Assembly (NCBI GenBank): GCA_000004985.1
Contig: GG738904.1
DNA from: Naegleria gruberi
Lineage: Eukaryota
Direction: 5' to 3' (one strand)
Length of the DNA: 64,000 nucleotides
Each line of letters starts with the position of its first letter. Within the stretch, counting starts at the first letter, position 1. Below, piece after piece: positions 20,586 through 62,640 of this stretch. A program made the position numbers and the translations under genes. Below the pieces are notes generated by a model. It was not told the origin of the DNA, searched no databases, and saw nothing but the letters and a program-made list of their open reading frames with translations.

Positions 20586-20704
20586 GGCTACGGCCATATC
20601 ACGATGAATGCACCTCATCCCGTCCGATTTGAGAAGTTAAGCATCGTCGAGCCACATCAGTACTGAGGTTGGAGACAACTTGGGAACCTGTGGTGCTGTA
20701 GTCT
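20586..20704 (+). rRNA. rrn5: 5S ribosomal RNA gene (single dispersed copy)
   Basis: GGCTACGGCCATATCACGATGAATGCACCTCATCCCGTCCGATTTGAGAAGTTAAGCATCGTCGAGCCACATCAGTACTGAGGTTGGAGACAACTTGGGAACCTGTGGTGCTGTAGTC aligns along its length with eukaryotic 5S, including the internal control region AGAAGTTAAGC. Followed by a TTTTT Pol III terminator at 20705-20709. Confidence 0.85.
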
Positions 20705-29293: not shown

Positions 29294-29740
29294 NNNNNNN
29301 NNNNNNNNNNNNNNNNNNNNNNNNNNNNNNNNNNNNNNNNNNNNNNNNNNNNNNNNNNNNNNNNNNNNNNNNNNNNNNNNNNNNNNNNNNNNNNNNNNNN
29401 NNNNNNNNNNNNNNNNNNNNNNNNNNNNNNNNNNNNNNNNNNNNNNNNNNNNNNNNNNNNNNNNNNNNNNNNNNNNNNNNNNNNNNNNNNNNNNNNNNNN
29501 NNNNNNNNNNNNNNNNNNNNNNNNNNNNNNNNNNNNNNNNNNNNNNNNNNNNNNNNNNNNNNNNNNNNNNNNNNNNNNNNNNNNNNNNNNNNNNNNNNNN
29601 NNNNNNNNNNNNNNNNNNNNNNNNNNNNNNNNNNNNNNNNNNNNNNNNNNNNNNNNNNNNNNNNNNNNNNNNNNNNNNNNNNNNNNNNNNNNNNNNNNNN
29701 NNNNNNNNNNNNNNNNNNNNNNNNNNNNNNNNNNNNNNNN
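29294..29740. other. Assembly gap (447 N)
   Basis: Run of N. ORFs 29198-29755(-) and 29290-29931(+) in the track are read-through artefacts of the gap. Confidence 1.
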
Positions 29741-35447: not shown

Positions 35448-37985
35448 ATGTTGAATATTAATTTCTCATCATTGTCACAGTCCGATAAAAATTATATTCT
35501 CGAGCAAATTAAATGGAATGATTGTTCGTGTTTGGAGAAAGTAAACGAAACTTTAAAGAAGGACCGAGAATTCGTTTTGGAAACTATTAAAAAACATGGA
35601 TCAGCACTCGAATATGCCGATGAATCCCTCAAGCAAGATAGAGAATTTATATTGACAGCTGTCAAAACGAATGGAAATTCATTTCGTTACATTGATGAAA
35701 AATTTAAAAAAGATCGAGAAATTGTTTTGGAGGGATTTAAAGAAAATTTATCTGCACTTGAATATGCTGATAAATCATTGAAAAAAGATCGAGATTTCAT
35801 GTTGACAGCTGTCAAACAAAATGGACTAGCTCTTCAACATGCGGATAAATTATTAAAAAAGGATCGGAAAATAGTATTGGAAGCTGTTAAGGAAAAGGCA
35901 TATGCTTTTAAATATGCCAATAAATCATTTACAAAGGATAGAGAATTTATGTTGGAGGCAATTGAATCAAATCCGTATGCATTTGGAAATGCCAATGTTT
36001 CGTTTAAAAAGGATCGACAATTCATGTTGGATGCTGTGAAGAGAAATGGACTAGCTCTTCACTATTATCAAGATGATTTATTTAGGAAAGATAGAGAAAT
36101 TGTATTGGAGGCAGTTAAAACAAATGGGAAAATACTCAAACATCTCAGCGAATCATTTAGGAAGGATCGAGAAGTGGTGTTTCAAGCTTTTCAGAATTGG
36201 AAAAAAGCACTGAAATATGCGAGTGCATCACTCAGGAATGACAAACTCTTTCTCTATTGGATTTCCAAGCATGATTTGAATACAGCTCGAGAATATTCAC
36301 CACACCTCGTTCAAATCATTGAGAATCACAGCAAATTGCAGACTAAACTGTCAACGAATATTATTGACATTTACTCGAAAAGTTTCAGTGATGAAAATGA
36401 ATTGTATTACTGTTTGGAGTTGCCTAAGAATAATCCAAAATCAAAGAGTACACTTTTCAATCTCAATCCAACCTATTCTACTGTATTCATTGAAAAATTA
36501 GTGATATTTCAAATATGGAAACGATTGACTGAATCAACAATTGATATTTTCTATTTGGAATCTCCAAATTACTATTTATTTTGTTTCAGATTGGAGAAAT
36601 TTTTAGAGGAAAATAGTACTCAACCAATTGGTTTGAAGGATTTGAAGAGAGTTGTGGAAACTATTTCATCCAAATTCGAAACATCACATTATAACAAGAA
36701 GGAAACCAGTCAGATACTTTACTTTTTTACAAAATGGACAGAAAGCGAGAAGACATTCAACAATTACAAACAAATATTATCAAAATATAATGAGCTACAT
36801 GGAGACTTGTCTAAAATATTCAGAGCTATGAATCAGTATTACAATTATTTCAGTAATGATTATGATTTTATTTCGATATTGGGACATGGAGGTGAAGGAG
36901 TGGTATTAAAGGTATTCCATAAATCGAGTAGGTCACTTAGAGCTGTTAAATTCAAATATAACACCGAGGAAAGCGAAGAATCTGGGAATGAATTACTGAA
37001 ATTATTGAGACGAAAAGATTTGACTGGAAAGATCAATTACTTTGATTGTGGAATGATACATAATCACCTCTATTCTGTCATGGAATTGGGCGAGGAATCT
37101 CTGGCAGATTACATATCGAGGAATTTTGAAATTTACATGAATCGAACTGCAAAATCTAAAGACAAACTGATAGAAATTCTTCAAATATTTATCAAAGTAT
37201 TGGAATCAGTCAAGTCCATACATGATCACAACATTTTACACAGAGATTTGGATCCACAAAATATTGTCAAAATTCAAGATGAGTACAAGATTATTGATTT
37301 TGAAACTTCAAAGGTTATCAAGACAGGAAACTCAATCACCATTGCTCGTGGAAAATATTCATACATGTCACCTGAAGTGTCACATGACAGTTACACAGAT
37401 GACATGTTAAAAAATGGTGATGAAATGAAACTAGCTCATAATATTGGAAACATTACAATTTCATGCGATTTATTCTCATTGGGATGTATTCTCTTAAAAT
37501 TACTAACCAATGTTCCATTACAATTGGATGAGCAATTTATTCATGATTCGGATATTTCAAAATATAATGATAATTTTACCTATTTTAATGTGTATGGAAA
37601 GTACTTCTTCACTGTCGTGACGACATCTGAAGGAGAAATGAAACTACACTATGCCATTGAAAAATTAATCAATAGCTCAATTATGGAGGAGTATGGAGTG
37701 AATCATTTATTGATTCGATGTATCATTACAATGATTCAAAGAGATTCTTCCAAGAGATTATCTTGTCGTGTGCATAAAACTACACTGGAGAGTGTGGTCA
37801 AGTTTTTGAAAGGAGAAAGCAAAGAATTGAAGGAGATTACTGATTATAAGGAAATTATATCACTGAAAAGCTATTCTCAATTGATTGAGGAAAATAAGAA
37901 ACTAAACGAAAATCAGAAAGCATTGGAGGAGAAGATTAAAATCTTGGAAGAGGAAATAAGGAAATGGAAACTAAATAGTCAATAA
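35448..37985 (+). CDS. Protein kinase with N-terminal array of DUF4116-type repeats and C-terminal coiled coil
   Basis: About 9 repeats of the form KDREFVLEAVKxNGxALxYA(D/S)xxLKKDR. Kinase domain has GHGGEGVVLK (Gly loop), AVKFK (VAIK), HRDLDPQNIV (catalytic loop, K replaced by D) and DFETSK (DFG replaced by DFE). Single exon, 845 aa. Confidence 0.75.
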   Translation: MLNINFSSLSQSDKNYILEQIKWNDCSCLEKVNETLKKDREFVLETIKKHGSALEYADESLKQDREFILTAVKTNGNSFRYIDEKFKKDREIVLEGFKENLSALEYADKSLKKDRDFMLTAVKQNGLALQHADKLLKKDRKIVLEAVKEKAYAFKYANKSFTKDREFMLEAIESNPYAFGNANVSFKKDRQFMLDAVKRNGLALHYYQDDLFRKDREIVLEAVKTNGKILKHLSESFRKDREVVFQAFQNWKKALKYASASLRNDKLFLYWISKHDLNTAREYSPHLVQIIENHSKLQTKLSTNIIDIYSKSFSDENELYYCLELPKNNPKSKSTLFNLNPTYSTVFIEKLVIFQIWKRLTESTIDIFYLESPNYYLFCFRLEKFLEENSTQPIGLKDLKRVVETISSKFETSHYNKKETSQILYFFTKWTESEKTFNNYKQILSKYNELHGDLSKIFRAMNQYYNYFSNDYDFISILGHGGEGVVLKVFHKSSRSLRAVKFKYNTEESEESGNELLKLLRRKDLTGKINYFDCGMIHNHLYSVMELGEESLADYISRNFEIYMNRTAKSKDKLIEILQIFIKVLESVKSIHDHNILHRDLDPQNIVKIQDEYKIIDFETSKVIKTGNSITIARGKYSYMSPEVSHDSYTDDMLKNGDEMKLAHNIGNITISCDLFSLGCILLKLLTNVPLQLDEQFIHDSDISKYNDNFTYFNVYGKYFFTVVTTSEGEMKLHYAIEKLINSSIMEEYGVNHLLIRCIITMIQRDSSKRLSCRVHKTTLESVVKFLKGESKELKEITDYKEIISLKSYSQLIEENKKLNENQKALEEKIKILEEEIRKWKLNSQ

Positions 37986-38277
37986 GATTATAATATTTTC
38001 AAATTCCTTTAAACTTCAAAAAAGAGAAATTCCCTTAAAAATATCATTTTCTTAATCTTGATTCAAACCTTTTAAAACTTTCGAATATTTCACTAACATT
38101 ATCATGTTTAATACTTGGATTCTCATACGTTGTTTGGTAATTCCTCATATTTGAACCTATTTTAAACATAGCCTACTTTAACCAGTTATTTCAATTTGTT
38201 CTCAAATTACAAAAAATAACACAATCATAAACAAGAATTACAACAATTAGTATCAAGTTTGGATTTTGATTTGAAAA

Positions 38278-38880
38278 ATGTTAATAAAATCAGATATTTT
38301 AATAAAAGATGAAGGATATTGGAAACAAGATGAAAAAACCATCGAATCAATTACTGGAAAACGATTCAGAACAATTTACGAAATTCTAAGTGAAGAGGTG
38401 GATTTAAATTTGGATAATTATAATAGTGATCGACATATTTTGAGATCAAGAGTTGAAACCTTATATGAAAAGGCAGAGAATAAGGCAATGCCTTTGTGTT
38501 TCGTATTGGTAAACATTATTCGATACATTAAACAGTTGAATATTCTGGTTTGGGGAGACAAAACAAACCCCATCAAGCAACTAACATTCCTCTCCATGTT
38601 TGGAATCCCATCTGATGTGAGTGGAGTTACTCGAATCGAGGCAATTGATTCTGACAAGTGCAAAGTTTCACAAAATAGTTTCGTCTTGGAGGTACTATCC
38701 ACAAAGGTGATCAACAACTACAACATATACACCAATAGGCTTGTTAATCACCCAATATGTGAGAACTGGTACGATGGAATCAAAGTGAACAATTACACAT
38801 TTGTTGATTTGACATGTGAAGATTTTTATGTGGCATACAAGAAATCAATTCCTAAACTCATTTGCACCGTTCTATGGTGA
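38278..38880 (+). CDS. Hypothetical protein; the functional paralog of the pseudogene at 59721-60311
   Basis: ATG-initiated 200-aa ORF with no recognisable domain. Its promoter-proximal 80 bp and CDS are duplicated in inverted orientation at 59700-60400. Confidence 0.5.
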   Translation: MLIKSDILIKDEGYWKQDEKTIESITGKRFRTIYEILSEEVDLNLDNYNSDRHILRSRVETLYEKAENKAMPLCFVLVNIIRYIKQLNILVWGDKTNPIKQLTFLSMFGIPSDVSGVTRIEAIDSDKCKVSQNSFVLEVLSTKVINNYNIYTNRLVNHPICENWYDGIKVNNYTFVDLTCEDFYVAYKKSIPKLICTVLW

Positions 38881-39129
38881 GATAATCAACAACAATCATT
38901 CCTGGATTTCCATGGAATCAGTTTCTTATTTAGAATTCAGTTGCCCATTGATGATTTTAAAATAATTTATTGAACGTGTTGAAAATTGTTGATTATTTTT
39001 AACAAATCTGTTTTAACGTATTTGCTAAAGCCTTAATAATTCATCGCGAACTACTGCTAGTTTAAGAATTAATTTTTTAATTTTTATAAAAATTGATAAA
39101 GAGAATCATCAATTCATCATAATGGAAGA

Positions 39130-53799: not shown

Positions 53800-54220
53800 T
53801 TTTAATTATTTGATGTTGATGCTCAAAAGGCATAAGCAGATGATTCGTGCTGTTTTGAGGGGGTTTGTTTGAGCGTTCGTTAAATTTTGATTTAAAAAAA
53901 ACCTGAGAAAAATTGTTTTTTTAATTTTATTATAAAGTCTTAAGGTTTTACCGTACACTACAGAGGTTTTCCAATTTAGCAATGGACTAGAAAGTAGCAG
54001 GTAACGTCCTTTTTTTTGAGGTGAGCCCCAAATCAATGTAATCAGTTGAATATTCCATTGACGGTCGCCCTTATTGAAAAATGCTGGATGATGCAGAAGT
54101 GAAAATTACAAAAGACTCTTATTCTCGCTATCTGTATTATATACTCTTAATTATGGCAATTAAGATGAAATTAAATTAATAATCAAATAATAAAAAGTCA
54201 GGAAAAACAAGAAGAAAAAA

Positions 54221-55147
54221 ATGACTTCGGGAAGAGCAAAGCCAACACCAATATTTCCCTTGACTGCTCAAATAAAACCATCCGATTCATTATTCTTGAA
54301 AAAGTCAAGTGGTGGCGGTGCTAGTAGAAGTAAGAAATCAACCTCATCAAATACAACAACACCACAAAGTTCGGAAAAGAAGTCAACAACGACATCTTCA
54401 TCACAGCGAAAAAGACAACAACAAGGATCATCGTCATCACAGAGAAAAGATAATTCCGATAGTAGCAGTGATGATGAAGAAGCTTCTTTGAGTACATCCA
54501 ATAATAATAACAATACAAGTGGAAATAGATCCAATACTCTGAATAGTAGTGCTGGCTCTACAAGAGATGATTCTCTGCCACCCTCTAATTTATTCACTCG
54601 ATCGAGTAGGAGAAAAAGAGCTCCTGTTGTATTGGACAGCAATTTCTCCTATGAACTTTCAACAGAATCAGAAAAAGAGGAAGAGCAGATCAATAGAAGA
54701 AAGAAACAGAAAAAGACAACAACTGTTTCCAAATCTAAAGCTTCTTCTTCTGCTGCATCAGTTATTTCAGTAGTGAGCGATGATACACCTCCCCCACATA
54801 GTGAAAAATCACAGGAAATGTCTCATTCCAATATTAATGGTAACAGTAATAGGATTTCATCTTCATTTGTAGAGCCAAGATTGGATATTTCAAATACAAG
54901 TCGCAATGCAGAGAAGTCATCGAAAAGTAAGACACCAACCAAATCTCAATCTAAATCATCATTGAACTCTACTCCTGTTGCAGCAATTCCTACCGAAACA
55001 CTAGCCAGTGAGGCACCAGAAGAGCCAGAACTTCCACCTATTCCAAGAGGCAGATCCAGAGCTCTCAAACAATTCAAAGAGCACCAAAATTCACTTTACA
55101 AGATTGTTAAAATATCTTTGGAATCCTTCTCCGATTTGAAGAGGTAG
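54221..55147 (+). CDS. Hypothetical serine-rich, basic low-complexity protein
   Basis: ATG-initiated 308-aa ORF, about 30 percent Ser, with K/R clusters (possible nuclear protein). No recognisable domain. Confidence 0.45.
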   Translation: MTSGRAKPTPIFPLTAQIKPSDSLFLKKSSGGGASRSKKSTSSNTTTPQSSEKKSTTTSSSQRKRQQQGSSSSQRKDNSDSSSDDEEASLSTSNNNNNTSGNRSNTLNSSAGSTRDDSLPPSNLFTRSSRRKRAPVVLDSNFSYELSTESEKEEEQINRRKKQKKTTTVSKSKASSSAASVISVVSDDTPPPHSEKSQEMSHSNINGNSNRISSSFVEPRLDISNTSRNAEKSSKSKTPTKSQSKSSLNSTPVAAIPTETLASEAPEEPELPPIPRGRSRALKQFKEHQNSLYKIVKISLESFSDLKR

Positions 55148-55249
55148 ATATTACAATAACTATTGTAGAGTTTTATATTCTTCCTAAACATTCCGAACAA
55201 GGAGTGTTGACGTCAATGTAATAGAATCTTCAAGAAAAAGAAGAAAAAA

Positions 55250-56233
55250 ATGAAATCAAACGTAAAGTCTCATCATGTCGGGCTCTGCTTGATGATTGTG
55301 ATCATCATGTTGTTGCAACAGGTTATTCTCATCACGGGACAAGTTAATAACCGTCCAATAATTGGAATTATGGCACAACCAACATATAAGAAAACATATG
55401 GAGAATCCTATTTGGCTGCATCATATGTGAAATGGATTGAATCGGGTGGTGCTCGTGTTGTTCCAATTCCCTACGATCTTCCACAGGAAAAATTAAATTT
55501 ATTATTTAATTCTTTGAATGGAATTGTTTTTCCAGGAGGTGGAACTTCTTTGAGATACTCTGAATATTACTATACATTGAAATTCTTTTTTGATAAAGCA
55601 ATCGAGGCAAATAATAGAGGTGATTATTTTCCAATTTGGGGAACTTGTTTGGGATTTGAAGCATTGAATGTATTGGCTGCTGATAATCCAGATGTTTTAC
55701 ATTTTGGATTTGATTCAGAGAATTTAAGTTTGAATTTACATTTTGTTAATGATTACAAGAATTCTAGAATTTTTGGAAAGGCACCACTTTCAGTTATGCA
55801 AATTTTGGCTGAACAAAACGTAACCATGAATAATCATATGGCAGGTATAACACCTGAAACTTTCATGAAGAATGACAGATTGAATCAATTTTACAAAATG
55901 TTATCTGTTAATGCTGATAGAAAAGGACAAGTGTTTGTATCAACCATTGAAAGTTTGAAATATCCAATTTATGGAACTCAATTCCATCCTGAAAAGATTC
56001 AATTTGAATTCAACTATGAAGACATTAATCACTCATACGATAGCGTATTAGCTAATCAATATTTTGCCAACTTTTTCGTAAATGAAGCCAGAAAGAATCA
56101 ACACAAATTTAGTTCATTTGAAGTGGAACAATCCTATAGCATTTACAATTTCAATGCCAAATTTACATTCCCAGAAATTAGCAAAGATTTTGTTCAAATT
56201 TATTACTTTAATGCTAGTAGAATTAATTTTTGA
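55250..56233 (+). CDS. GGH: Gamma-glutamyl hydrolase (class I glutamine amidotransferase-like, peptidase C26)
   Basis: Signal peptide MKSNVKSHHVGLCLMIVIIMLLQQVIL. Catalytic Cys in PIWGTCLGFE and His in YGTQFHPEK. 327 aa, single exon. Confidence 0.9.
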   Translation: MKSNVKSHHVGLCLMIVIIMLLQQVILITGQVNNRPIIGIMAQPTYKKTYGESYLAASYVKWIESGGARVVPIPYDLPQEKLNLLFNSLNGIVFPGGGTSLRYSEYYYTLKFFFDKAIEANNRGDYFPIWGTCLGFEALNVLAADNPDVLHFGFDSENLSLNLHFVNDYKNSRIFGKAPLSVMQILAEQNVTMNNHMAGITPETFMKNDRLNQFYKMLSVNADRKGQVFVSTIESLKYPIYGTQFHPEKIQFEFNYEDINHSYDSVLANQYFANFFVNEARKNQHKFSSFEVEQSYSIYNFNAKFTFPEISKDFVQIYYFNASRINF

Positions 56234-56251
56234 AAGAAATAATACAATTTA

Positions 56252-58276
56252 TTAATATCTTCTATTATTGCCAGAATAGCCATTTCTACCATTTCCATAA
56301 TTGTCATAATTTCTATTATTATTACCATGATAATTATCATTGTTTCTATGATTATTGCCACGATAATTATTATTGGATGATGAGGAATGATTATTTCTAT
56401 TAGAATTCTTGTTTGTGTGATATCCTTTCTGTTCACTCTTTTTCACACAATTTCTCAAGTATTGAGCAATGGTAGTGGCTGAGGAAAATTCATTATTAAA
56501 ACCAACATATTCGAAATATTCCTCAAAGGAGCTAACTTTTTGGATTTTGAAAACTTCTCTCTGAAGAACATCTTCAAGAGATTCGTCAGATTTAGTTTTT
56601 GGAGGAGCTCCAAAATTAATATCATACATTCTGCCTAATTCTGAGAGAGGCAAATCTCCATATGCTTCTACAACATTTCTCAAGAAGAAGACATGGAACA
56701 TGATTAATTTACAAGAAACCATATTTTCTTCCCATGATTTCTGACATCTTTCATAATTGTTTTGATCTGAATGAATATTGGAAAGTTTTGGATGTTTCTT
56801 AACCACCCATAATGCATTCCTAGTACCAGTTTCATCAACCACTGCTGATTTGATTGAATCCCATGTGAAACCAGAAGGACCTAAAATGGTCAACTTGGGA
56901 AGAAACTCACCAATATTTGGACATGCATTTTTAGTTCTAAACTTTTCATCATTGATAAAGTTTTGAACTTGCTTTTTGATATTATCAAGAGAATTTGGAA
57001 AGTTTTCCATCAAATAGATCAACCATCTATGGAAATATAAATATCCATACAGTGCCTTAATAGAGGCATGTGTGACACCTTTCATAATTTCAACAACCAT
57101 ATTGTTCATCAATTTACAAAGTAATTCGACATATGGTTCGGCACTATCGAGGTCAATTTGTCCATTTCTGTTTGGAGTGAGAAGTTTAGGATAATATTCC
57201 AAAAGAAAGGAAAGTGAATTTTTGAAAACTGAGAATTTTGCATGAGTTTGATTAATGAACAATGGAATCCAACCATGAATTGGTTGACCCCAAACACTCT
57301 TGTACACCTCCTCATGGAAGAATGATGATTCACTTATGAAATCAAGTGGAGTTTTGATTTCCTTGATAGTTTCGTCATTTTTCAACTCAATCCAAAGTCC
57401 AATTCCAAGTGTTTCTTCCTTGTATGAAGATTTAGAATGGAAACAAATCAATTCTCGTGAGTAGGTAAGATATTTACAATCACAAGCATGTTGGAAAGCT
57501 TTGCAAACTGTTTCTACTCGTTTCAAATCAATAAACGAAAGATAGGAAAAGATGTGGATAAGTATTTCATTTGGAAAATCTTCAAAAGAAATCATTGTTT
57601 TGGTTAAAGAGTTTGTGGAATTTCTAATGCCAACAATTGAACTTTCGTCAAGTTTCTCAATAAGAATCTTCTTGAGAGCTTGTTCGGATTCGTCCTGACT
57701 TTCGAATTTTCTCTTCTTTAAACCAGAATTGAACACCTCCTCAACATTCCAATGAGGAGCCATCGGATAAATCTTTCCTTCTTGTGGCCAATGTCCAGTC
57801 TCTTGGACACGAGTAGCTCTAGAACCTTTAATATCTTTCTCAATGTGAGATTGATGAAGATGCTCCTCTTCCAATAAGAAAGCTTGCAATTGCAATAGAA
57901 TGGACAAACATGAATAACTTGAACTCCATCCCATATATGGTTCTTCAGAGTGATGTGTCTCCAACATGTCCAAACAAATAAATTGTCTATAGACATGGGA
58001 ATGATACAATGGAGTGAGACATTTTACAGTTGGAGGTGAATGAGGATAATCATTTGGAAAGGTAATTTCCAAACTAATGATAATGCCATAATATTTGGAT
58101 GATTGTGGAGCTAATAAAGTTGCATACCAGTGAAATAAATTATTTTCAAAGGGTTCGGCGTAGACTGTATCGAGTGGATTATTCTGAATTTCAATGAAAT
58201 CTTTGGATAAACGTTTTAAAGCTCTGCTGTGTGGAGTTGCTGCTGTTGAATTTGATGAATTTGATGAATTTGACAT
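56252..58276 (-). CDS. Ubiquitin-conjugating (UBC/E2) domain protein with internal F-box and large C-terminal region ending in an N/R/G/Y-rich tail
   Basis: ATG at 58276, 28 nt before the gap. UBC fold SRALKRLSKDFIEIQNNPL...LFHWYATLLAPQSSKYYGIIISLEITFPNDYPHSPPTVKCLTPLYHSHVYRQFICLDML...W (active-site Cys in FICLDML, HPN replaced by HSH). F-box FPNEILIHIFSYLSFIDLKRVETVCKAF about 255 aa in. Single exon of 674 aa. The track ORF extension to 58363 is read-through of N. Confidence 0.75.
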   Translation of the reverse strand: MSNSSNSSNSTAATPHSRALKRLSKDFIEIQNNPLDTVYAEPFENNLFHWYATLLAPQSSKYYGIIISLEITFPNDYPHSPPTVKCLTPLYHSHVYRQFICLDMLETHHSEEPYMGWSSSYSCLSILLQLQAFLLEEEHLHQSHIEKDIKGSRATRVQETGHWPQEGKIYPMAPHWNVEEVFNSGLKKRKFESQDESEQALKKILIEKLDESSIVGIRNSTNSLTKTMISFEDFPNEILIHIFSYLSFIDLKRVETVCKAFQHACDCKYLTYSRELICFHSKSSYKEETLGIGLWIELKNDETIKEIKTPLDFISESSFFHEEVYKSVWGQPIHGWIPLFINQTHAKFSVFKNSLSFLLEYYPKLLTPNRNGQIDLDSAEPYVELLCKLMNNMVVEIMKGVTHASIKALYGYLYFHRWLIYLMENFPNSLDNIKKQVQNFINDEKFRTKNACPNIGEFLPKLTILGPSGFTWDSIKSAVVDETGTRNALWVVKKHPKLSNIHSDQNNYERCQKSWEENMVSCKLIMFHVFFLRNVVEAYGDLPLSELGRMYDINFGAPPKTKSDESLEDVLQREVFKIQKVSSFEEYFEYVGFNNEFSSATTIAQYLRNCVKKSEQKGYHTNKNSNRNNHSSSSNNNYRGNNHRNNDNYHGNNNRNYDNYGNGRNGYSGNNRRY

Positions 58277-58304
58277 TTTAATTGAAAGACAATTGATGAA
58301 ATTG

Positions 58305-58354
58305 NNNNNNNNNNNNNNNNNNNNNNNNNNNNNNNNNNNNNNNNNNNNNNNNNN
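58305..58354. other. Assembly gap (50 N, size placeholder)
   Basis: Run of N. Confidence 1.
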
Positions 58355-58992
58355 CTTGACCAAAATGGTTGTTCCTCATCTGATTGAATCCATTCAAATA
58401 ATTTTTCATAGAATATTTTAGGATGTTGTAAAATTCTTTCTTTTTTAACATGAAAAGAGGCGCAACACCATCTAGTAATGCTTGATGGTACTTTACCCAA
58501 TTCATTTTCGAATAGTTTCTTCCAATATTTTTCAACTATACGATAATTAGGATCTGTTTCATTCAAATGTCTGTGAAATTGTGGATTTAATGAAATGTAT
58601 TCATATTTACCCCAATATAAACTCTCCACAACAGGTACAATATCAACATAATGCCACGATTTCCTATGTCCATGAATAAAAATCATATTTTCAGGTAAAT
58701 TTTCATAATAATCAATAATAAATTTCAAATAACTTGAAGCTTCATGTCCCCTATTTTCTTTTACTTTAAATGATGGATTTGGATCCAATCTATCATAAAC
58801 TACGTGTGGAATATGAGGGAAATGTGTTGCTAACCACGATGTGTCCTCATTAAATCTTGAAACTATTATCATGTTTTTAGTATTGGTAAAATTATCATGT
58901 TTTGGAGTATTGTGGTGTATAACTCCGAATTGATATAAAACAATAGTCATGAGTGTGAGGAAAACTAAACTCCACAAAATACGTTCTTTCAT
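58355..58992 (-). CDS. DUF3431-like type II membrane protein (putative glycosyltransferase-like), 3' end lost in gap
   Basis: ATG at 58992. N-terminal signal anchor ILWSLVFLTLMTIVLYQF, motif VSRFNEDTSWL, HGHRKSWHYVD. ORF runs into the gap at 58354. Confidence 0.55.
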
Positions 58993-59191
58993 TTTTTTTT
59001 ACAACACTTGACAGGGGAATTTAACAGTTTCGCTAGGTAATGTTTTGGTAAATCCAAAGTTGGTGTAATATTTTCAAAATCAAAAACCACAAGAACCAGT
59101 TCGATGTAGTATGTTGCCTCTTCATCATCACCTCTTTCAGGTACCTCAATTACATTTTATCTGATTAAGGTCTTGATATAAAAAATGTGCT

Positions 59192-59262
59192 CGTCTCGTG
59201 GTGTAATGGTAGCATAGTGGACTTTGAATCCATTGACGGAGGTTCGATTCCTCCCGAGACGG
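59192..59262 (+). tRNA. tRNA-Gln(UUG): tRNA-Gln (anticodon UUG), copy 1
   Basis: CGTCTCG TG GTGT AATGGTAG CATA GTGGA CTTTGAA TCCAT TGAC GGAGG TTCGATT CCTCC CGAGACG G. Cloverleaf with 7-bp acceptor (C1-G72), D-arm like eukaryotic tRNA-Gln, anticodon loop CTTTGAA, T-loop TTCGATT. No encoded CCA. Confidence 0.8.
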
Positions 59263-59294
59263 TAAACGTGGCGAGCCATTGAGATTTGCAAACT

Positions 59295-59344
59295 NNNNNN
59301 NNNNNNNNNNNNNNNNNNNNNNNNNNNNNNNNNNNNNNNNNNNN
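59295..59344. other. Assembly gap (50 N)
   Basis: Run of N. Confidence 1.
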
Positions 59345-59460
59345 TCTGAATTTCAATGAAATCTTTGGATAAACGTTTTAAAGCTCTGCTGTGTGGAGTT
59401 GCTGCTGTTGAATAGGAAGAATTTGACATTTTAATTGAAAGACAATTTGATGAAATTTAA
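59345..59460 (-). repeat. Near-identical second copy of the 5' end (first ~28 codons plus 5' UTR) of the E2/F-box gene, abutting a gap
   Basis: 59345-59460 matches 58186-58304 except for a short microsatellite-like indel (MSNSSYSTAATPHSRALKRLSKDFIEIQ vs MSNSSNSSNSTAATPH...). Flush against the N run, so consistent with an uncollapsed haplotype or contig-end overlap rather than a real exon. Confidence 0.6.
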
Positions 59461-59720
59461 AAGATTTTGATGGAATGTGGAGTCTGAGAAATCCGAATCT
59501 GTGTTTCGATTCAATTTTTTGTGAATGTTGATCGATTTTTGATTAGCTTGCAAATCGATTAAAAACTGATTTTTTTAGAGTTAAAAATAGAAGATCAAAA
59601 TTTTTCAACAGGTTCAATAAATTGTTTTAAAATTCATCAACTGATCAAATCATTTTAGAACCTTATTTTGAATTCTAAATAAGAAACTGATTCGAAATCC
59701 AAGGATTGTTGTTGATTATC

Positions 59721-60311
59721 TCACCATAGAACGGTGCAAATGAGTTTAGGAATTGATTTCTTACATGCCACATAAAAATCTTCACATGTCAAATCAACAA
59801 ATGAATAATTGTTAACTTGGATTCCATCAAAATAGTTATTCCACATTAGATGTTCAACATTCCTGTTGGTGTTATTTGTAAAGTTAAATGCAGATACTTC
59901 CAAGACGAAACTATTTTGTGAAACTTTGCACTTGTCAGAATCAATTGCCTAGATTCGAGTAACTCCACTCACATCAGAGGGGATTCCAAACATGGAGAGG
60001 AATGTTAGTTGCTTGATGGGGTTTGTTTTGTCTCCCCAAACCAGAATATTCAACTGTTTAATGTATCGAATAATGTTTACCAATACGAAACACAAAGGCA
60101 TTGCCTTATTCTCTGCCTTTTCATATAAAATTTCAACCCTTGATATCAAAATATGTCGATCACTATTATAATTATCCAAATTTAAATCCACCTCTTCAGT
60201 GAGAATTTCGTAAATTGTTCTGAATCGTTTTCCAGTAATTGATTCGATGGTTTTTTCATCTTGTTTCCAATATCCTTCATCTTTTATTAAAATATCGGCC
60301 TTGAGCAACAT
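59721..60311 (-). pseudogene. Inverted duplicate of the gene at 38278-38880 carrying a premature TAG stop and divergence in the 3' half
   Basis: Codons 1-119 MLLKADILIKDEGYWKQDEKTIESITGKRFRTIYEIL... are about 90 percent identical to the parent gene, and the upstream 80 bp is also copied. GAG is replaced by TAG at the position of E120 (59946-59948). The downstream part (...VNNYSFVDLTCEDFYVACKKSIPKLICTVLW) is in frame but diverged, with internal deletions. Confidence 0.7.
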
Positions 60312-60656
60312 TTTTCAAATCAAAATCCAAACTTGATAGGTGCAGTTCTTGTTTATGATTGTGTTATTTTTTGTAATTTTTTTGTGATTTTGATTGGGAT
60401 TGAGGTCTTAATAAACAATTTATAATGAATCATCTTATGGATGGAATGAAAAGAAAAGACTGATTGTTGGATAAAGTCAATTTGAAAATTTTTACAACTT
60501 AATGTGAGGTATGAAAAAAATTGCATGCCTGCCGAGGCTTCCAAAAAAAGAAATATAGATAATTTTTGAAAAATAAAAACGCCACTACCTTGATATGGAT
60601 GTCTAGTAGGGATCTATGAAAAATTGGGCAAAAATATTAAGAATTAAAAATTACTA

Positions 60657-60727
60657 CTCGAGTGCCGGGAATTGAACCCGGGTCGCCAGAGTGACAGTCT
60701 GGAATGCTACCACTATACCACACCCGA
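60657..60727 (-). tRNA. tRNA-Asp(GUC): tRNA-Asp (anticodon GUC)
   Basis: Reverse complement: TCGGGTG TG GTATAGTGGTAG CAT T CCAGA CTGTCAC TCTGG CGAC CCGGG TTCAATT CCCGG CACTCGA G. U1-A72 start and GTATAGTGGT D-arm typical of eukaryotic tRNA-Asp. G4-U69 wobble. Confidence 0.85.
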
Positions 60728-60988
60728 TTTCACATTTATTCTGAAACTATCCACTACCCTTATCTGTACAGAACGAATATTTAATTTTTTCTACTGAACT
60801 ACTAAAGTGTTGCACTTTCTTTCAAATAGAAAATAGTTTTATGACTCTATTCTCCTCTCCTTCTCTCAAGAAAGAAAATATTAATTTATTTTGGATACTT
60901 CCTTTTTATTAGCTAGTATCAGTAAAATTTATTCTTTCTTTAATAGTATTGTGAAATAATTTGTTCGAAGCCAAATGATTACAATTTG

Positions 60989-61150
60989 TGATGCTTGGTG
61001 GTATTTTACCCAATTCATTTTCGAATATATTTTTCAACTATTCGATAATTATCATCTGTTTCATTCAGATGGCTGTGAAATTGTGGATTTAATGAATGTA
61101 TTCATATTTACCCAATATAAACTCTCCACAACAGGTACAATATCAATATA
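60989..61150 (+). repeat. Degenerate fragment copy of the DUF3431-like gene (cf. 58465-58640), part of a duplicated gene-fragment plus tRNA-Gln block
   Basis: About 85 percent identity to 58465-58640 in the same orientation, with no intact ORF. 59080-59190 and 61320-61407 (the tRNA 5' flanks) are also similar. Confidence 0.6.
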
Positions 61151-61407
61151 AAGGTATTTTTGTATTGGTCACTCTAGTTGTTGTAATGCCAGGTTTTGAG
61201 GCTTAGAATTTAACGAAAATGGTTTGCCTTCTTGATGTGTTTTGAAGCTATGGGAGTAAACTACAATTTCCTTTTTGCTTAAAATTTAATCTCAAAACGC
61301 GGCATATTTTCAATTAATTATCAAAAACCAAAAGAACCAGTTCAGTCTACATAAATTGTTGCTTCAATTAAATATTATGATTAAGGTGTTGATTTAGTGA
61401 ATGTGCT

Positions 61408-61478
61408 CGTCTCGTGGTGTAATGGTAGCATAGTGGACTTTGAATCCATTGACGGAGGTTCGATTCCTCCCGAGACGG
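61408..61478 (+). tRNA. tRNA-Gln(UUG): tRNA-Gln (anticodon UUG), copy 2 (identical to copy 1)
   Basis: Same 71-nt sequence as 59192-59262. The about 10 nt upstream (AATGTG) and about 24 nt downstream (TAAACGTGGCGAGCC.TTGAGATTT) are also conserved between the copies. Confidence 0.8.
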
Positions 61479-61668
61479 TAAACGTGGCGAGCCCTTGAGA
61501 TTTTTCTTATTGAACTTTTTCTGTTTAACAACATGCAATACGCCTCAACAGAGATAGAACTCACTACTCAGTTCACCTATTGGTTACTGCTGCTATTAAG
61601 CAATTGAAGGAATAAGTTAATAATAATTGCTTGTGTTTGCGTTTACGTTTTACAATTTCCAGAAAAAA

Positions 61669-62640
61669 ATGAAAAGACAGAGCAACGAACATTCTGCTCT
61701 TCCGAAAAGAAAGAAGCAACAATCAGTTGAGGAGCCTCCTTCAAGAGAACAACAACTCCAGCAAACATCTCCTACTATCGGATCAACAACAATAATTAAT
61801 CATGTTGATGATGAAAATAATAACAAAATAATCATGATGATGACGAATATTCCTCTGGATATTATCACTAATGAAGTCTTTACATTCTTTCCATGCCAAT
61901 GGATTTTTCGGGTGGCTTTCTTGGTTTGCAAGGCTTGGTATAATTCTGTGAATAATTTCAATCTATTGATAATTCAAACTAATTTGAATGTTGACACTCA
62001 AAGGAATCAGTCATTCTTATTGTGTTGTAAGGAAGGGAGATTTAATTCTGCCAGAGAATTTTGTGTGAAGGGTTTTGATTTACATCATTACAAACTATCC
62101 ATTCCGATTGTAAACTTTACAGCTCTACAGGTATTGGATCTTTCGTATAGCAAATTGGGAAGTTTAGGTATTAGTATTCTATCTCAGAATAATGCAAACC
62201 AATTGAGAGGATTAAGAAAGTTTACATACAGATACAACGTATTAACGCACAAAGGACTAGAAGTCCTTTGCTCACTTCCGTTAACTAAACTGAAAGAATT
62301 GGATCTTTCTTTTAACAGGATTGGCGATACTGGATGCACTGTTTTAAGGAAAGCACCTTTTTTGAATTCTCTCACTTCATTGGAGCTATACGACAATAGG
62401 ATTGGAAATCAGGGATTCTTGACATTGGTTGATACTAACTTTCAATCTCTTCGTTTCATCAATTTACGGTTCAATGCTGTAGACCATATAGATTGTGAAG
62501 TTTTCAACAGTGAGAAACTGAGTAACAAACTTCCTAACATTCAGTCAATTAATTTACTTTTCAATAAGATTGACATCAGCGAAATTACCCATTTAAACGC
62601 AAATGTTAAAAAGCTAATAGTTGTGAATATGGTAAATTAA
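61669..62640 (+). CDS. F-box / RNI-like leucine-rich-repeat protein
   Basis: ATG at 61669 (the track start at 61627 is TTG). F-box-like IPLDIITNEVFTFFPCQWIFRVAFLVCKAWYNSV. RNI-type LRRs (LQVLDLSYSKLGSLGISIL..., LKELDLSFNRIGDTGCTVL..., LTSLELYDNRIGNQGFLTL...). Confidence 0.65.
   Translation: MKRQSNEHSALPKRKKQQSVEEPPSREQQLQQTSPTIGSTTIINHVDDENNNKIIMMMTNIPLDIITNEVFTFFPCQWIFRVAFLVCKAWYNSVNNFNLLIIQTNLNVDTQRNQSFLLCCKEGRFNSAREFCVKGFDLHHYKLSIPIVNFTALQVLDLSYSKLGSLGISILSQNNANQLRGLRKFTYRYNVLTHKGLEVLCSLPLTKLKELDLSFNRIGDTGCTVLRKAPFLNSLTSLELYDNRIGNQGFLTLVDTNFQSLRFINLRFNAVDHIDCEVFNSEKLSNKLPNIQSINLLFNKIDISEITHLNANVKKLIVVNMVN

What the first reader, a model, noticed from the sequence alone, without database searches (positions are those of the whole stretch)
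58186..61500. Mosaic of segmental duplications, a pseudogene copy and scaffold gaps centred on tRNA genes
Within 3.3 kb the following sit next to each other. (a) Two 50-N gaps. (b) The first ~28 codons of the E2/F-box gene appear twice (58186-58304 and 59345-59460), the second copy flush with a gap and differing by a microsatellite indel. (c) A block [DUF3431-like gene fragment + tRNA-Gln with conserved flanks] occurs intact at 58355-59262 and degenerate at 60989-61478. (d) An inverted, promoter-included copy of the gene at 38278-38880 lies at 59700-60400, inactivated by a single GAG to TAG change plus 3' decay. (e) tRNA-Asp lies on the opposite strand. Some of this probably represents uncollapsed haplotypes at contig ends, and some is genuine duplication near tRNA genes. 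tRNA genes are preferred insertion and recombination targets in several compact eukaryotic genomes.
Basis: seen in the sequence. Interest (0 to 1): 0.5.

Follow-up and report, generated by a model that had tools for sequence, protein, structure and literature searches.

The report
Draft-assembly overlap plus ordinary gene duplicates
The repeats are real sequence, but most of the mosaic is one Naegleria gruberi locus partly written out twice by a draft assembly, plus one ordinary old gene duplication, so it is unremarkable.

Summary
The window is Naegleria gruberi NEG-M, a draft scaffold of a heterozygous diploid.

- **E2 "duplication".** It is a dovetail. The last 122 nt before gap 1 equal the first 113 nt after gap 2, apart from an in-frame microsatellite change. 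I read this as an unmerged contig overlap.
- **Contig B (58355-59294).** It is very probably misplaced. A metagenome contig from a ~99% identical strain continues B's DUF3431 gene (100% identity) into tRNA-Asp and the orphan gene. That is the position the decayed copy D occupies in the next contig. B is therefore the other haplotype of D, or a neighbouring paralogous unit. Only reads can decide.
- **Genuine duplication.** The orphan-gene pair 38278-38880 / 59721-60311 has dS 0.19.
- **The "pseudogene".** It has one nonsense codon and no decay. It differs from the intact relative by 8 synonymous, 4 missense and 1 nonsense change.
- **Mobile elements.** No trace was found.

Interest is low.

The parts
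56252..58279 (-). E2 (UQ_con) + F-box gene, annotated as NAEGRDRAFT_59412. Its start codon lies 25 nt from the end of contig A.
   Evidence: Pfam UQ_con 1e-22 and F-box-like 1.8e-10. 100% match to P0008.
58183..58304 (-). End of contig A: first 32 codons of E2 plus 25 nt upstream (copy 1, MSNSSNSSNSTAAT...). Flush with gap 1.
58305..58354 (.). Gap 1, 50 N. Inferred to be a placeholder or floor size.
   Evidence: For contrast, the sized 447-N gap at 29294-29740 has no overlapping flanks.
58355..58992 (-). Intact DUF3431 gene, first 212 codons. The last 52 codons are cut off by gap 1 and are recovered from L003. This is part of contig B.
   Evidence: Pfam DUF3431 3.5e-34. L003 positions 1-163 are 100% identical to 58517-58355. 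The composite 264-aa protein aligns with the N. lovaniensis orthologue across the join.
59146..59287 (+). tRNA-Gln(TTG) copy 1 (59191-59263) with conserved flanks, on contig B.
   Evidence: ARAGORN. Rfam 68.8 bits. Self-BLAST 93% to 61364-61503.
59295..59344 (.). Gap 2, 50 N.
59345..59457 (-). Start of contig C: first 28 codons of E2 plus upstream (copy 2, MSNSSYSTAAT...). The reading frame is open and the stretch is flush with gap 2. Together with 58183-58304 it forms a dovetail overlap.
59580..60379 (-). Inverted paralogous copy of 38204-39003: gene G2 plus ~70 nt upstream and ~140 nt downstream.
   Evidence: Self-BLAST 87.5% over 825 columns. Boundary alignment.
59721..60311 (-). G2, a 196-codon orphan ORF interrupted only by TAG at 59949-59951 (codon 121).
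   Evidence: 13 differences in 591 nt from the intact P0063/L003 gene: 8 synonymous, 4 missense, 1 nonsense, no indel. dN/dS 0.12.
60657..60727 (-). tRNA-Asp(GTC).
   Evidence: Identical in L003 at 503-573.
60748..60911 (.). 164-nt spacer between tRNA-Asp and the DUF3431 remnant. It is essentially unalignable with the 162-nt spacer of L003. A sharp change of divergence occurs at about 60747.
60912..61151 (-). Decayed DUF3431 copy (part of D). The 3' end (60912-60992) shows 6.3% substitutions against L003. A ~196-nt internal deletion follows. The middle part (60988-61151) shows 5.5% substitutions plus 11-nt and two 1-nt deletions. The 5' half and the start codon are lost.
61304..61503 (+). Rest of D: an upstream remnant (61304-61343) and tRNA-Gln(TTG) copy 2 (61407-61479) with conserved flanks. 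Homology to contig B ends at the T-run at 61503.
38204..39003 (+). G1 locus. The intact 200-codon orphan gene at 38278-38880 is the genuine paralogue of G2.
   Evidence: dS 0.19 and dN/dS 0.33 against G2.

Best explanation
The region is a single Naegleria gruberi locus with this gene order: E2/F-box (-), orphan gene G2 (-), tRNA-Asp (-), DUF3431 (-), tRNA-Gln (+), LRR gene (+). The draft Sanger scaffold of a heterozygous diploid has written it out partly twice.

1. Contig A ends, and contig C begins, with the same 113-122 nt of the E2 5' end. The two versions differ by an in-frame 9-nt change in a coding (TCA-AAT-TCA)-type microsatellite and a 1-nt homopolymer indel. This is an unmerged overlap of two alleles, or of noisy read ends. 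It is not a duplicated exon.

2. The 940-nt contig B, wedged between A and C with two placeholder 50-N gaps, carries the intact version of the tRNA-Asp to tRNA-Gln interval. Its decayed counterpart D lies in contig C. B really sits to the right of tRNA-Asp, where D is drawn, most likely as the alternative haplotype. The scaffolder could not put it inside contig C, so it dropped it into the nearest gap.

3. Some things are truly duplicated. The orphan gene pair G1 (38278-38880) and G2 (59721-60311) is an old dispersed inverted duplication. B and D also share a deep homology, whichever way they are arranged. G2 carries a single recent nonsense codon, which could also be a base-call error. D is a long-dead remnant.

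Shown: the repeats, the dovetail geometry, the continuation of B's gene into tRNA-Asp and G in an independent assembly, the divergence values, and the absence of mobile-element features. Inferred: that 50 N is a floor value, that B and D are alleles rather than neighbouring paralogues, and why the scaffolder placed B where it did.
For: - Organism: N. gruberi NEG-M, a 297-kb scaffold. Naegleria is described as mainly a heterozygous diploid (PMC9928731).
- Dovetail: 58183-58304 is flush with gap 1 and 59345-59457 is flush with gap 2. Sixty-nine plus 23 plus 11 nt are identical around an in-frame microsatellite difference, and copy 2 keeps an open frame.
- Control: the sized 447-N gap has no overlapping flanks.
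- Independent contig L003 (ENA ERZ929261) comes from the same metagenome as L001, which is 99.2% identical to the window. Its positions 1-163 are 100% identical to contig B up to the gap edge. It then continues with the DUF3431 C-terminus, which aligns with the N. lovaniensis orthologue across the join. tRNA-Asp and an intact G gene follow. This stretch matches window 60747-59721 with 1.8-2.2% substitutions.
- The order and the spacing from the DUF3431 3' end to tRNA-Asp are the same in both versions: 183 nt in L003 and 185 nt in the window.
- B and D have the same orientation and lie ~2.2-2.5 kb apart. This matches the contained-contig signature of haplotype mis-assembly, and A/C matches the overlapping-contig signature (PMC2864568).
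- L003 runs unbroken from the tRNA-Asp region into the B-type sequence. This argues against a second, near-identical copy of that region joined to a D-type sequence in that strain.
Against: - B and D are far more divergent than ordinary alleles. Alignable parts show 5.5-6.3% substitutions and flanks show 16-18%. There are several large indels and unalignable blocks.
- Only ~38% of B aligns to D. This fails the identity and coverage thresholds used for haplotype variants in PMC2864568.
- A null allele this decayed, sitting beside a conserved functional allele, is more typical of an old paralogue.
- The window's tRNA-Asp/G2 region differs from L003 by ~2%, about three times the L001 divergence (0.65%). 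L003 could therefore be a paralogous unit rather than the orthologue.
- No read depth or mate-pair data were available. The meaning of '50 N' is my inference.
Confidence: 0.6

Rival explanations
1. A real local tandem duplication. The unit, of roughly 2.2-3 kb, runs from part of E2 through its upstream region, G, tRNA-Asp and DUF3431 to tRNA-Gln. Unit 1 is intact and unit 2 is decaying. The near-identical parts of the two units were collapsed by the assembler. The two '50-N' gaps then hide ~1.7 kb (E2 upstream, a second G, a second tRNA-Asp, the DUF3431 3' end) and several hundred nt of E2 respectively.
For: This model gives the same assembly graph as the allelic model. It explains naturally why B and D look like old paralogues, with one intact and one decayed. 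L003 would be unit 1. The ~2% difference between L003 and the window in the G/tRNA-Asp region exceeds the 0.65% seen for L001. The last 10 nt of contig B (TTTGCAAACT) recur at 57500 inside E2.
Against: The model needs a mosaic of near-identity (collapsed parts) and 6-18% divergence within one duplication, so it requires gene conversion. Both gaps are 50 N, whereas the model needs ~1.7 kb and ~0.7 kb. The 10-mer occurs three times on that strand in 64 kb, so it is not significant. B's tail also aligns loosely with the sequence downstream of D. The 9-nt indel in the E2 copy is in frame and that copy's frame is open, which suits a live allele. L003 is not broken at the point where two units would diverge.
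Confidence: 0.2
2. Contig B comes from a dispersed paralogous block (G - tRNA-Asp - DUF3431 - tRNA-Gln) elsewhere in the genome. It was pulled into this scaffold by mate pairs that landed in the similar G/tRNA-Asp sequence. The A/C overlap is a plain unmerged overlap.
For: The divergence of B from D fits old paralogues. N. gruberi has about 924 tDNAs, so tRNA genes with their flanks have been copied often (PMC2888827). The N. lovaniensis DUF3431 orthologue lies in a different neighbourhood with no tRNA within 10 kb.
Against: A scaffolder normally needs several consistent links to place a contig, and B sits in the same orientation as D only ~2 kb away. Only one G2-type protein exists among 15 billion proteins, in a 90%-identity cluster with a single member. 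Synteny with N. lovaniensis is absent for the E2 gene as well, so it says nothing either way.
Confidence: 0.12
3. The repeats are footprints of a tRNA-targeted mobile element, or of tRNA-mediated ectopic recombination.
For: Three tRNA genes lie in 2.3 kb, and the window has none elsewhere. The strongly divergent interval is bracketed by tRNA-Asp and tRNA-Gln, and homology to B stops at the T-run after tRNA-Gln.
Against: ORFs of the region have no reverse-transcriptase, integrase or transposase domain. There are no LTRs, TIRs or target-site duplications. The duplicated material is ordinary host genes. The conserved tRNA sequences are explained by selection on the tRNAs themselves.
Confidence: 0.04

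Closest known systems
False segmental duplications from haplotype mis-assembly in whole-genome shotgun drafts (Kelley and Salzberg 2010, PMC2864568: duplicated overlapping contigs and duplicated contained contigs)
   Same: The ends of neighbouring contigs repeat the same sequence across a gap. A short contig with similarity to the inside of the next contig is placed beside it in the same orientation. The organism is a heterozygous diploid and the assembly is a Sanger paired-end draft.
   Different: The overlap is short (113-122 nt). The small contig is far more divergent from its counterpart than the >=96% identity typical of such cases. It may therefore be a structural allele or a true paralogue.
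Ordinary gene duplication followed by decay of one copy (unprocessed pseudogene)
   Same: G1 and G2 share coding sequence, promoter and 3' flank at dS 0.19. The DUF3431 remnant D has lost its start codon, carries frameshifts and has a 196-nt deletion.
   Different: G2 is not decayed. It has one nonsense codon and an otherwise selectively constrained sequence, so it is at most a very young or allelic null.
tRNA-gene-targeted retroelements (Dictyostelium TRE and DGLT-A, yeast Ty1/Ty3). Cited from my own knowledge.
   Same: Sequence rearrangements are clustered next to tRNA genes in a gene-dense protist genome.
   Different: No element is present. There are no RT or IN ORFs, no terminal repeats, no TSDs and no fixed distance from the tRNA genes.
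Closely spaced identical tRNA gene pairs produced by local duplication, as reported for Dictyostelium discoideum (own knowledge). tRNA gene locations also turn over rapidly in eukaryotes generally (PMC2888827).
   Same: Two identical tRNA-Gln(TTG) genes with similar flanks lie ~2.2 kb apart in the scaffold.
   Different: Here the pair may be two alleles of one gene drawn side by side.

Membership tests
Haplotype or overlap mis-assembly (false duplication) | Ends of adjacent contigs carry the same sequence (dovetail across a gap) | tested here: met
   58183-58304 ends at gap 1 and 59345-59457 starts after gap 2. There are 111 identities in 113 aligned pairs plus 3 indel events. The overlap is shorter than the 400 bp used as a criterion in PMC2864568.
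Haplotype or overlap mis-assembly (false duplication) | A short contig is contained in a neighbouring contig at high identity (about 96% over about 94% of its length) | tested here: not met
   Only ~360 of the 940 nt of contig B align to 60988-61503, at 82-93%. B and D are homologous but too divergent for this criterion.
Haplotype or overlap mis-assembly (false duplication) | Half read depth and mate pairs consistent with a single position | not testable with these tools
   No reads were available.
Haplotype or overlap mis-assembly (false duplication) | An independent assembly shows the single-copy arrangement | tested here: inconclusive
   L003 joins B-type DUF3431 directly to tRNA-Asp and the G gene, so B is not next to the E2 start. 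However, L003 comes from another strain and does not reach E2 or the LRR gene.
Genuine segmental duplication | Both copies lie inside contiguous sequence with different flanks | tested here: met
   Met for G1 (38204-39003) and G2 (59580-60379), whose flanks diverge on both sides. Not met for the E2 5' end, where both copies abut gaps. Not met for contig B, which has gaps on both sides.
Genuine segmental duplication | Divergence clearly above allelic or strain level | tested here: met
   G1-G2 dS is 0.19, against 0.65% overall between strains. B-D shows 5.5-18%, which also exceeds strain level. This is the main argument against simple allelism.
Pseudogene | Disabling lesions together with relaxed constraint | tested here: inconclusive
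   D has multiple deletions, frameshifts and a lost start codon, so it meets the feature. G2 has a single TAG, no indels and dN/dS 0.12 against the intact P0063. The lesion is met, but relaxed constraint is not.
tRNA-targeted mobile element | Element-encoded RT, integrase or transposase, terminal repeats and a target-site duplication | tested here: not met
   Pfam finds nothing in ORFs of 59.7-61.6 kb. No LTR-like or TIR-like repeats were found.

The most novel reading that the evidence does not exclude
The tRNA-Asp to tRNA-Gln interval could be an ancient, hyper-divergent structural polymorphism held heterozygous in N. gruberi NEG-M. One haplotype would carry an intact DUF3431. The other would carry a long-decayed remnant linked to a nonsense allele of the neighbouring orphan gene. 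The boundaries would lie at the two tRNA genes. That would point to very old allele lineages (long-term asexuality or balancing selection) and to tRNA genes acting as recombination boundaries.
Probability: 0.15. Interest if true: 0.45.

Novelty: already known. Interest (0 to 1): 0.15.

Why it matters
The main value is as a correction. The reference scaffold of N. gruberi probably misrepresents this locus in three ways. It shows a duplicated E2 first exon, it truncates and misplaces the only intact DUF3431 gene, and it leaves an unannotated orphan gene pair. Anyone counting segmental duplications, tRNA genes (two tRNA-Gln here may be one) or pseudogenes in this genome would overcount. If the two versions do prove to be alleles, their depth of divergence would be a useful data point on heterozygosity and sex in Naegleria.

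Tried and rejected
- Exact-sequence look-ups found nothing on record for the E2/F-box protein, G1, the G2 ORF and the LRR protein. I therefore obtained no second assembly across the gaps.
- Two scans of JGI metagenome contigs found nothing. One used the tRNA-Gln 3' flank and one used a 27-mer next to tRNA-Asp.
- Synteny in N. lovaniensis was uninformative. Neither the DUF3431 orthologue (L002) nor the best E2/F-box homologue (L004) has tRNA genes or shared neighbours within 10 kb.
- I considered the match of contig B's last 10 nt to 57500 as a possible tandem-duplication junction. I rejected it because the word occurs three times on that strand in the window, and B's tail also aligns loosely downstream of D.
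- The sigma-70 promoter and terminator scan is irrelevant for a eukaryote and gave chance-level counts.
- A deep search for relatives of the orphan G protein gave only P0063 and three weak hits. Pfam gave none.
- The primary genome paper (Fritz-Laylin 2010) is not held. Heterozygosity is therefore cited second-hand from PMC9928731.
- No paper mentioning PRJEB11402 was found.

Full report
**What is there**

The window has 33.6% G+C and three N runs: 447 N at 29294-29740, and exactly 50 N at 58305-58354 and at 59295-59344. These split the region into three contigs. Contig A runs up to 58304, contig B covers 58355-59294 (940 nt), and contig C starts at 59345.

ARAGORN and Rfam agree on three tRNA genes. 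tRNA-Gln(TTG) lies at 59191-59263 (+) and at 61407-61479 (+). tRNA-Asp(GTC) lies at 60657-60727 (-). The only other RNA gene in the window is a 5S rRNA at 20586-20704.

- 58183-58303 against 59345-59457, 91%.
- 58475-58651 against 60988-61151, 87.6%.
- 59146-59287 against 61364-61503, 93%.
- 59068-59102 against 61304-61343.
- 59580-60379 against 39003-38204, inverted, 87.5% over 825 columns.

Apart from intragenic repeats in a kinase gene, these are the only dispersed repeats in the 64 kb.

**Identity of the pieces**

Exact protein look-ups place the window in Naegleria gruberi, on a 297-kb scaffold. The matching proteins are EFC38831, EFC38836 and EFC38837.
- 56252-58279 (-) is a UQ_con + F-box protein, NAEGRDRAFT_59412.
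- 58355-58992 (-) is the first 212 codons of a DUF3431 protein. Gap 1 cuts it off.
- 38278-38880 (+), called G1 here, is a 200-aa orphan with no Pfam match.
- 61669-62637 is an LRR protein.

Naegleria is described as mainly a heterozygous diploid (PMC9928731). It is reported to carry about 924 tDNAs (PMC2888827).

**The E2 'duplication' is a dovetail**

Copy 1 occupies the last 122 nt of contig A. Copy 2 occupies the first 113 nt of contig C. Both are flush with the gaps. They are identical for 69 nt. They then differ in a coding microsatellite: GAATTTGATGAATTTGATGAATTTGAC against GAATAGGAAGAATTTGAC, which reads MSNSSNSSNST against MSNSSYST. This is a net 9 nt and stays in frame. They are identical again for 23 nt, differ by one T in a homopolymer, and agree to the last base of contig A. 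Copy 2 keeps an open frame up to the gap.

This is the geometry of two contig ends that overlap but were not merged. It corresponds to the 'duplicated overlapping contigs' of Kelley and Salzberg (PMC2864568). The sized 447-N gap shows no such overlap. I infer that 50 N is a floor or placeholder value.

**Independent evidence on contig B**

In about 5.8 billion protein clusters, the only relative of G1 is P0063 (196 aa, 87% identity). It lies on a 1556-nt ENA metagenome contig, L003. The same metagenome yields L001, which is 99.2% identical to window 54205-56497. The metagenome therefore holds a close relative of the sequenced strain.

L003 reads as follows:
- Positions 1-163 are 100% identical to contig B from 58517 down to the very edge of gap 1.
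- The DUF3431 frame continues for 52 more codons to a stop at ~320.
- tRNA-Asp(GTC) follows at 503-573.
- An intact G gene lies at 962-1552.

The composite 264-aa DUF3431 protein aligns with the 263-aa N. lovaniensis orthologue across the join. L003 therefore gives the true continuation of B's gene. What lies beyond B's left end is tRNA-Asp and a G gene, not the start codon of E2 as the scaffold draws it.

**How L003 compares with contig C**

| Segment | Divergence from the window |
|---|---|
| G gene (59721-60311) | 2.2% substitutions, no indels |
| G to tRNA-Asp spacer | 1.8% substitutions, six indels |
| tRNA-Asp with ~20 nt upstream | ~2% substitutions |
| Next 162-164 nt, right of ~60747 | Essentially unalignable |
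| Last 80 nt of DUF3431 (60912-60992) | 6.3% substitutions |

Further right, the window lacks ~196 nt. The middle of the gene (60988-61151) shows 5.5% substitutions with an 11-nt and two 1-nt deletions. The 5' half and the start codon are replaced by unrelated sequence. A 40-nt remnant and the tRNA-Gln region follow. Upstream of tRNA-Gln the substitution level is 16%. The tRNA and the next 21 nt are identical. Homology ends at the T-run.

The order is the same in both versions. So is the distance from the DUF3431 stop to tRNA-Asp: 183 nt in L003 and 185 nt in the window. B plus L003, and the stretch 59721-61503, are therefore two versions of one block: G, tRNA-Asp, DUF3431, tRNA-Gln. One version is intact and the other is decayed to the right of tRNA-Asp.

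**The 'pseudogene'**

G2 (59721-60311) differs from the intact L003 gene at 13 of 591 nt. Eight changes are synonymous, four are missense and one is GAG to TAG at 59949-59951. There are no indels. dN/dS is 0.12.

The 3' part that looked decayed relative to G1 is shared with the intact L003 gene. It is lineage divergence, not decay. G1 against G2 gives dS 0.19 and dN/dS 0.33. Homology runs ~70 nt upstream and ~125-140 nt downstream of the ORF, and the flanks beyond that differ. This is a genuine, old, dispersed inverted duplication inside contiguous sequence. The TAG is either very recent, allelic, or a base-call error.

**Interpretation**

The assembly graph is a double bubble. The two E2 5' versions form one bubble, and B against D forms the other. 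Shared sequence lies between and around them.

The reading I favour (0.6) is one locus with two haplotypes, flattened by the scaffolder. A and C overlap. B is the other version of the tRNA-Asp to tRNA-Gln interval. It could not be placed inside contig C, so it was dropped into the nearest gap in the right orientation. This is the 'contained contig' signature of PMC2864568. Four things support it: the dovetail, the floor-size gaps, the in-frame microsatellite variant, and the fact that L003 runs unbroken from the tRNA-Asp region into B-type sequence.

The main weakness is the depth of divergence between B and D. Substitutions reach 5.5-18%, there are large indels, and only ~38% of B aligns. That looks more like old paralogues than like alleles.

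Two rivals follow from this:
- **A real tandem duplication of the whole ~2.2-3 kb unit (0.2).** The near-identical parts would have been collapsed. This needs much larger gaps and mosaic gene conversion.
- **A dispersed paralogous block mis-scaffolded here (0.12).**

A possible junction signal for the tandem model turned out not to be significant. The last 10 nt of B recur at 57500, but the same word occurs three times on that strand in the window.

**tRNA targeting**

There is no reverse transcriptase, integrase or transposase in any ORF of the region. There are no LTR-like, TIR-like or TSD-like repeats. The N. lovaniensis orthologue of DUF3431 and the closest E2/F-box homologue there have no tRNA genes within 10 kb and no shared neighbours. 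The tRNA association is therefore lineage-specific, and synteny cannot arbitrate. The only point in favour of a role for the tRNA genes is that the highly divergent interval is bracketed by them. Selection on the tRNA sequences themselves explains most of that.

**Verdict**

The locus is best seen as a draft-assembly artefact at a structurally variable site, laid over ordinary gene duplication and decay. It is of low general interest but is a useful correction to the reference. Read depth, spanning long reads or one PCR would settle allele against paralogue.

Noticed in passing
window 20586-20704 (+): A 5S rRNA gene (Rfam 105 bits). It stands alone and is the only other Pol III gene in the window besides the three tRNAs.
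   Followed up: no
window 38278-38880, 59721-60311; L003 962-1552: The G genes are an unannotated orphan family. Neither window copy is in the N. gruberi protein set. A search of 1.84 billion representative proteins gives only P0063 and three weak hits. One of these is a 1169-aa protein in which residues 103-137 of G match nine repeated stretches, which suggests a repeat-like motif.
   Followed up: partly
L001 1-151 versus window upstream of 54205: The first ~150 nt of the metagenome contig do not align with the window, although the remaining 2290 nt are 99.2% identical. This is either a structural difference between strains or a chimeric contig end.
   Followed up: no
window 56252-58279 (-): The protein fuses an E2 ubiquitin-conjugating domain with an F-box, and it has an N/H/Y/G-rich low-complexity tail. 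This architecture has several paralogues in N. gruberi and relatives in N. lovaniensis, N. fowleri, Willaertia magna and many metagenome contigs.
   Followed up: no
window 35548-36181 (+): The 845-aa kinase gene has internal tandem repeats at the DNA level (66-70% identity, offsets of ~75-450 nt). They correspond to a repeated 'KKDREFVLEAVK'-type motif in its N-terminal half.
   Followed up: no
window 59264-59287 and 61480-61503: The 3' trailer of tRNA-Gln (TAAACGTGGCGAGCC[A/C]TTGAGATTT) is conserved between the two copies as far as the T-run, whereas the 45 nt upstream differ by 16%. Copy 1 shows only TTT before its contig ends. Copy 2 has T5.
   Followed up: no
window 29294-29740: A 447-N sized gap interrupts an apparent coding region. 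Its flanks do not overlap, unlike those of the two 50-N gaps.
   Followed up: partly
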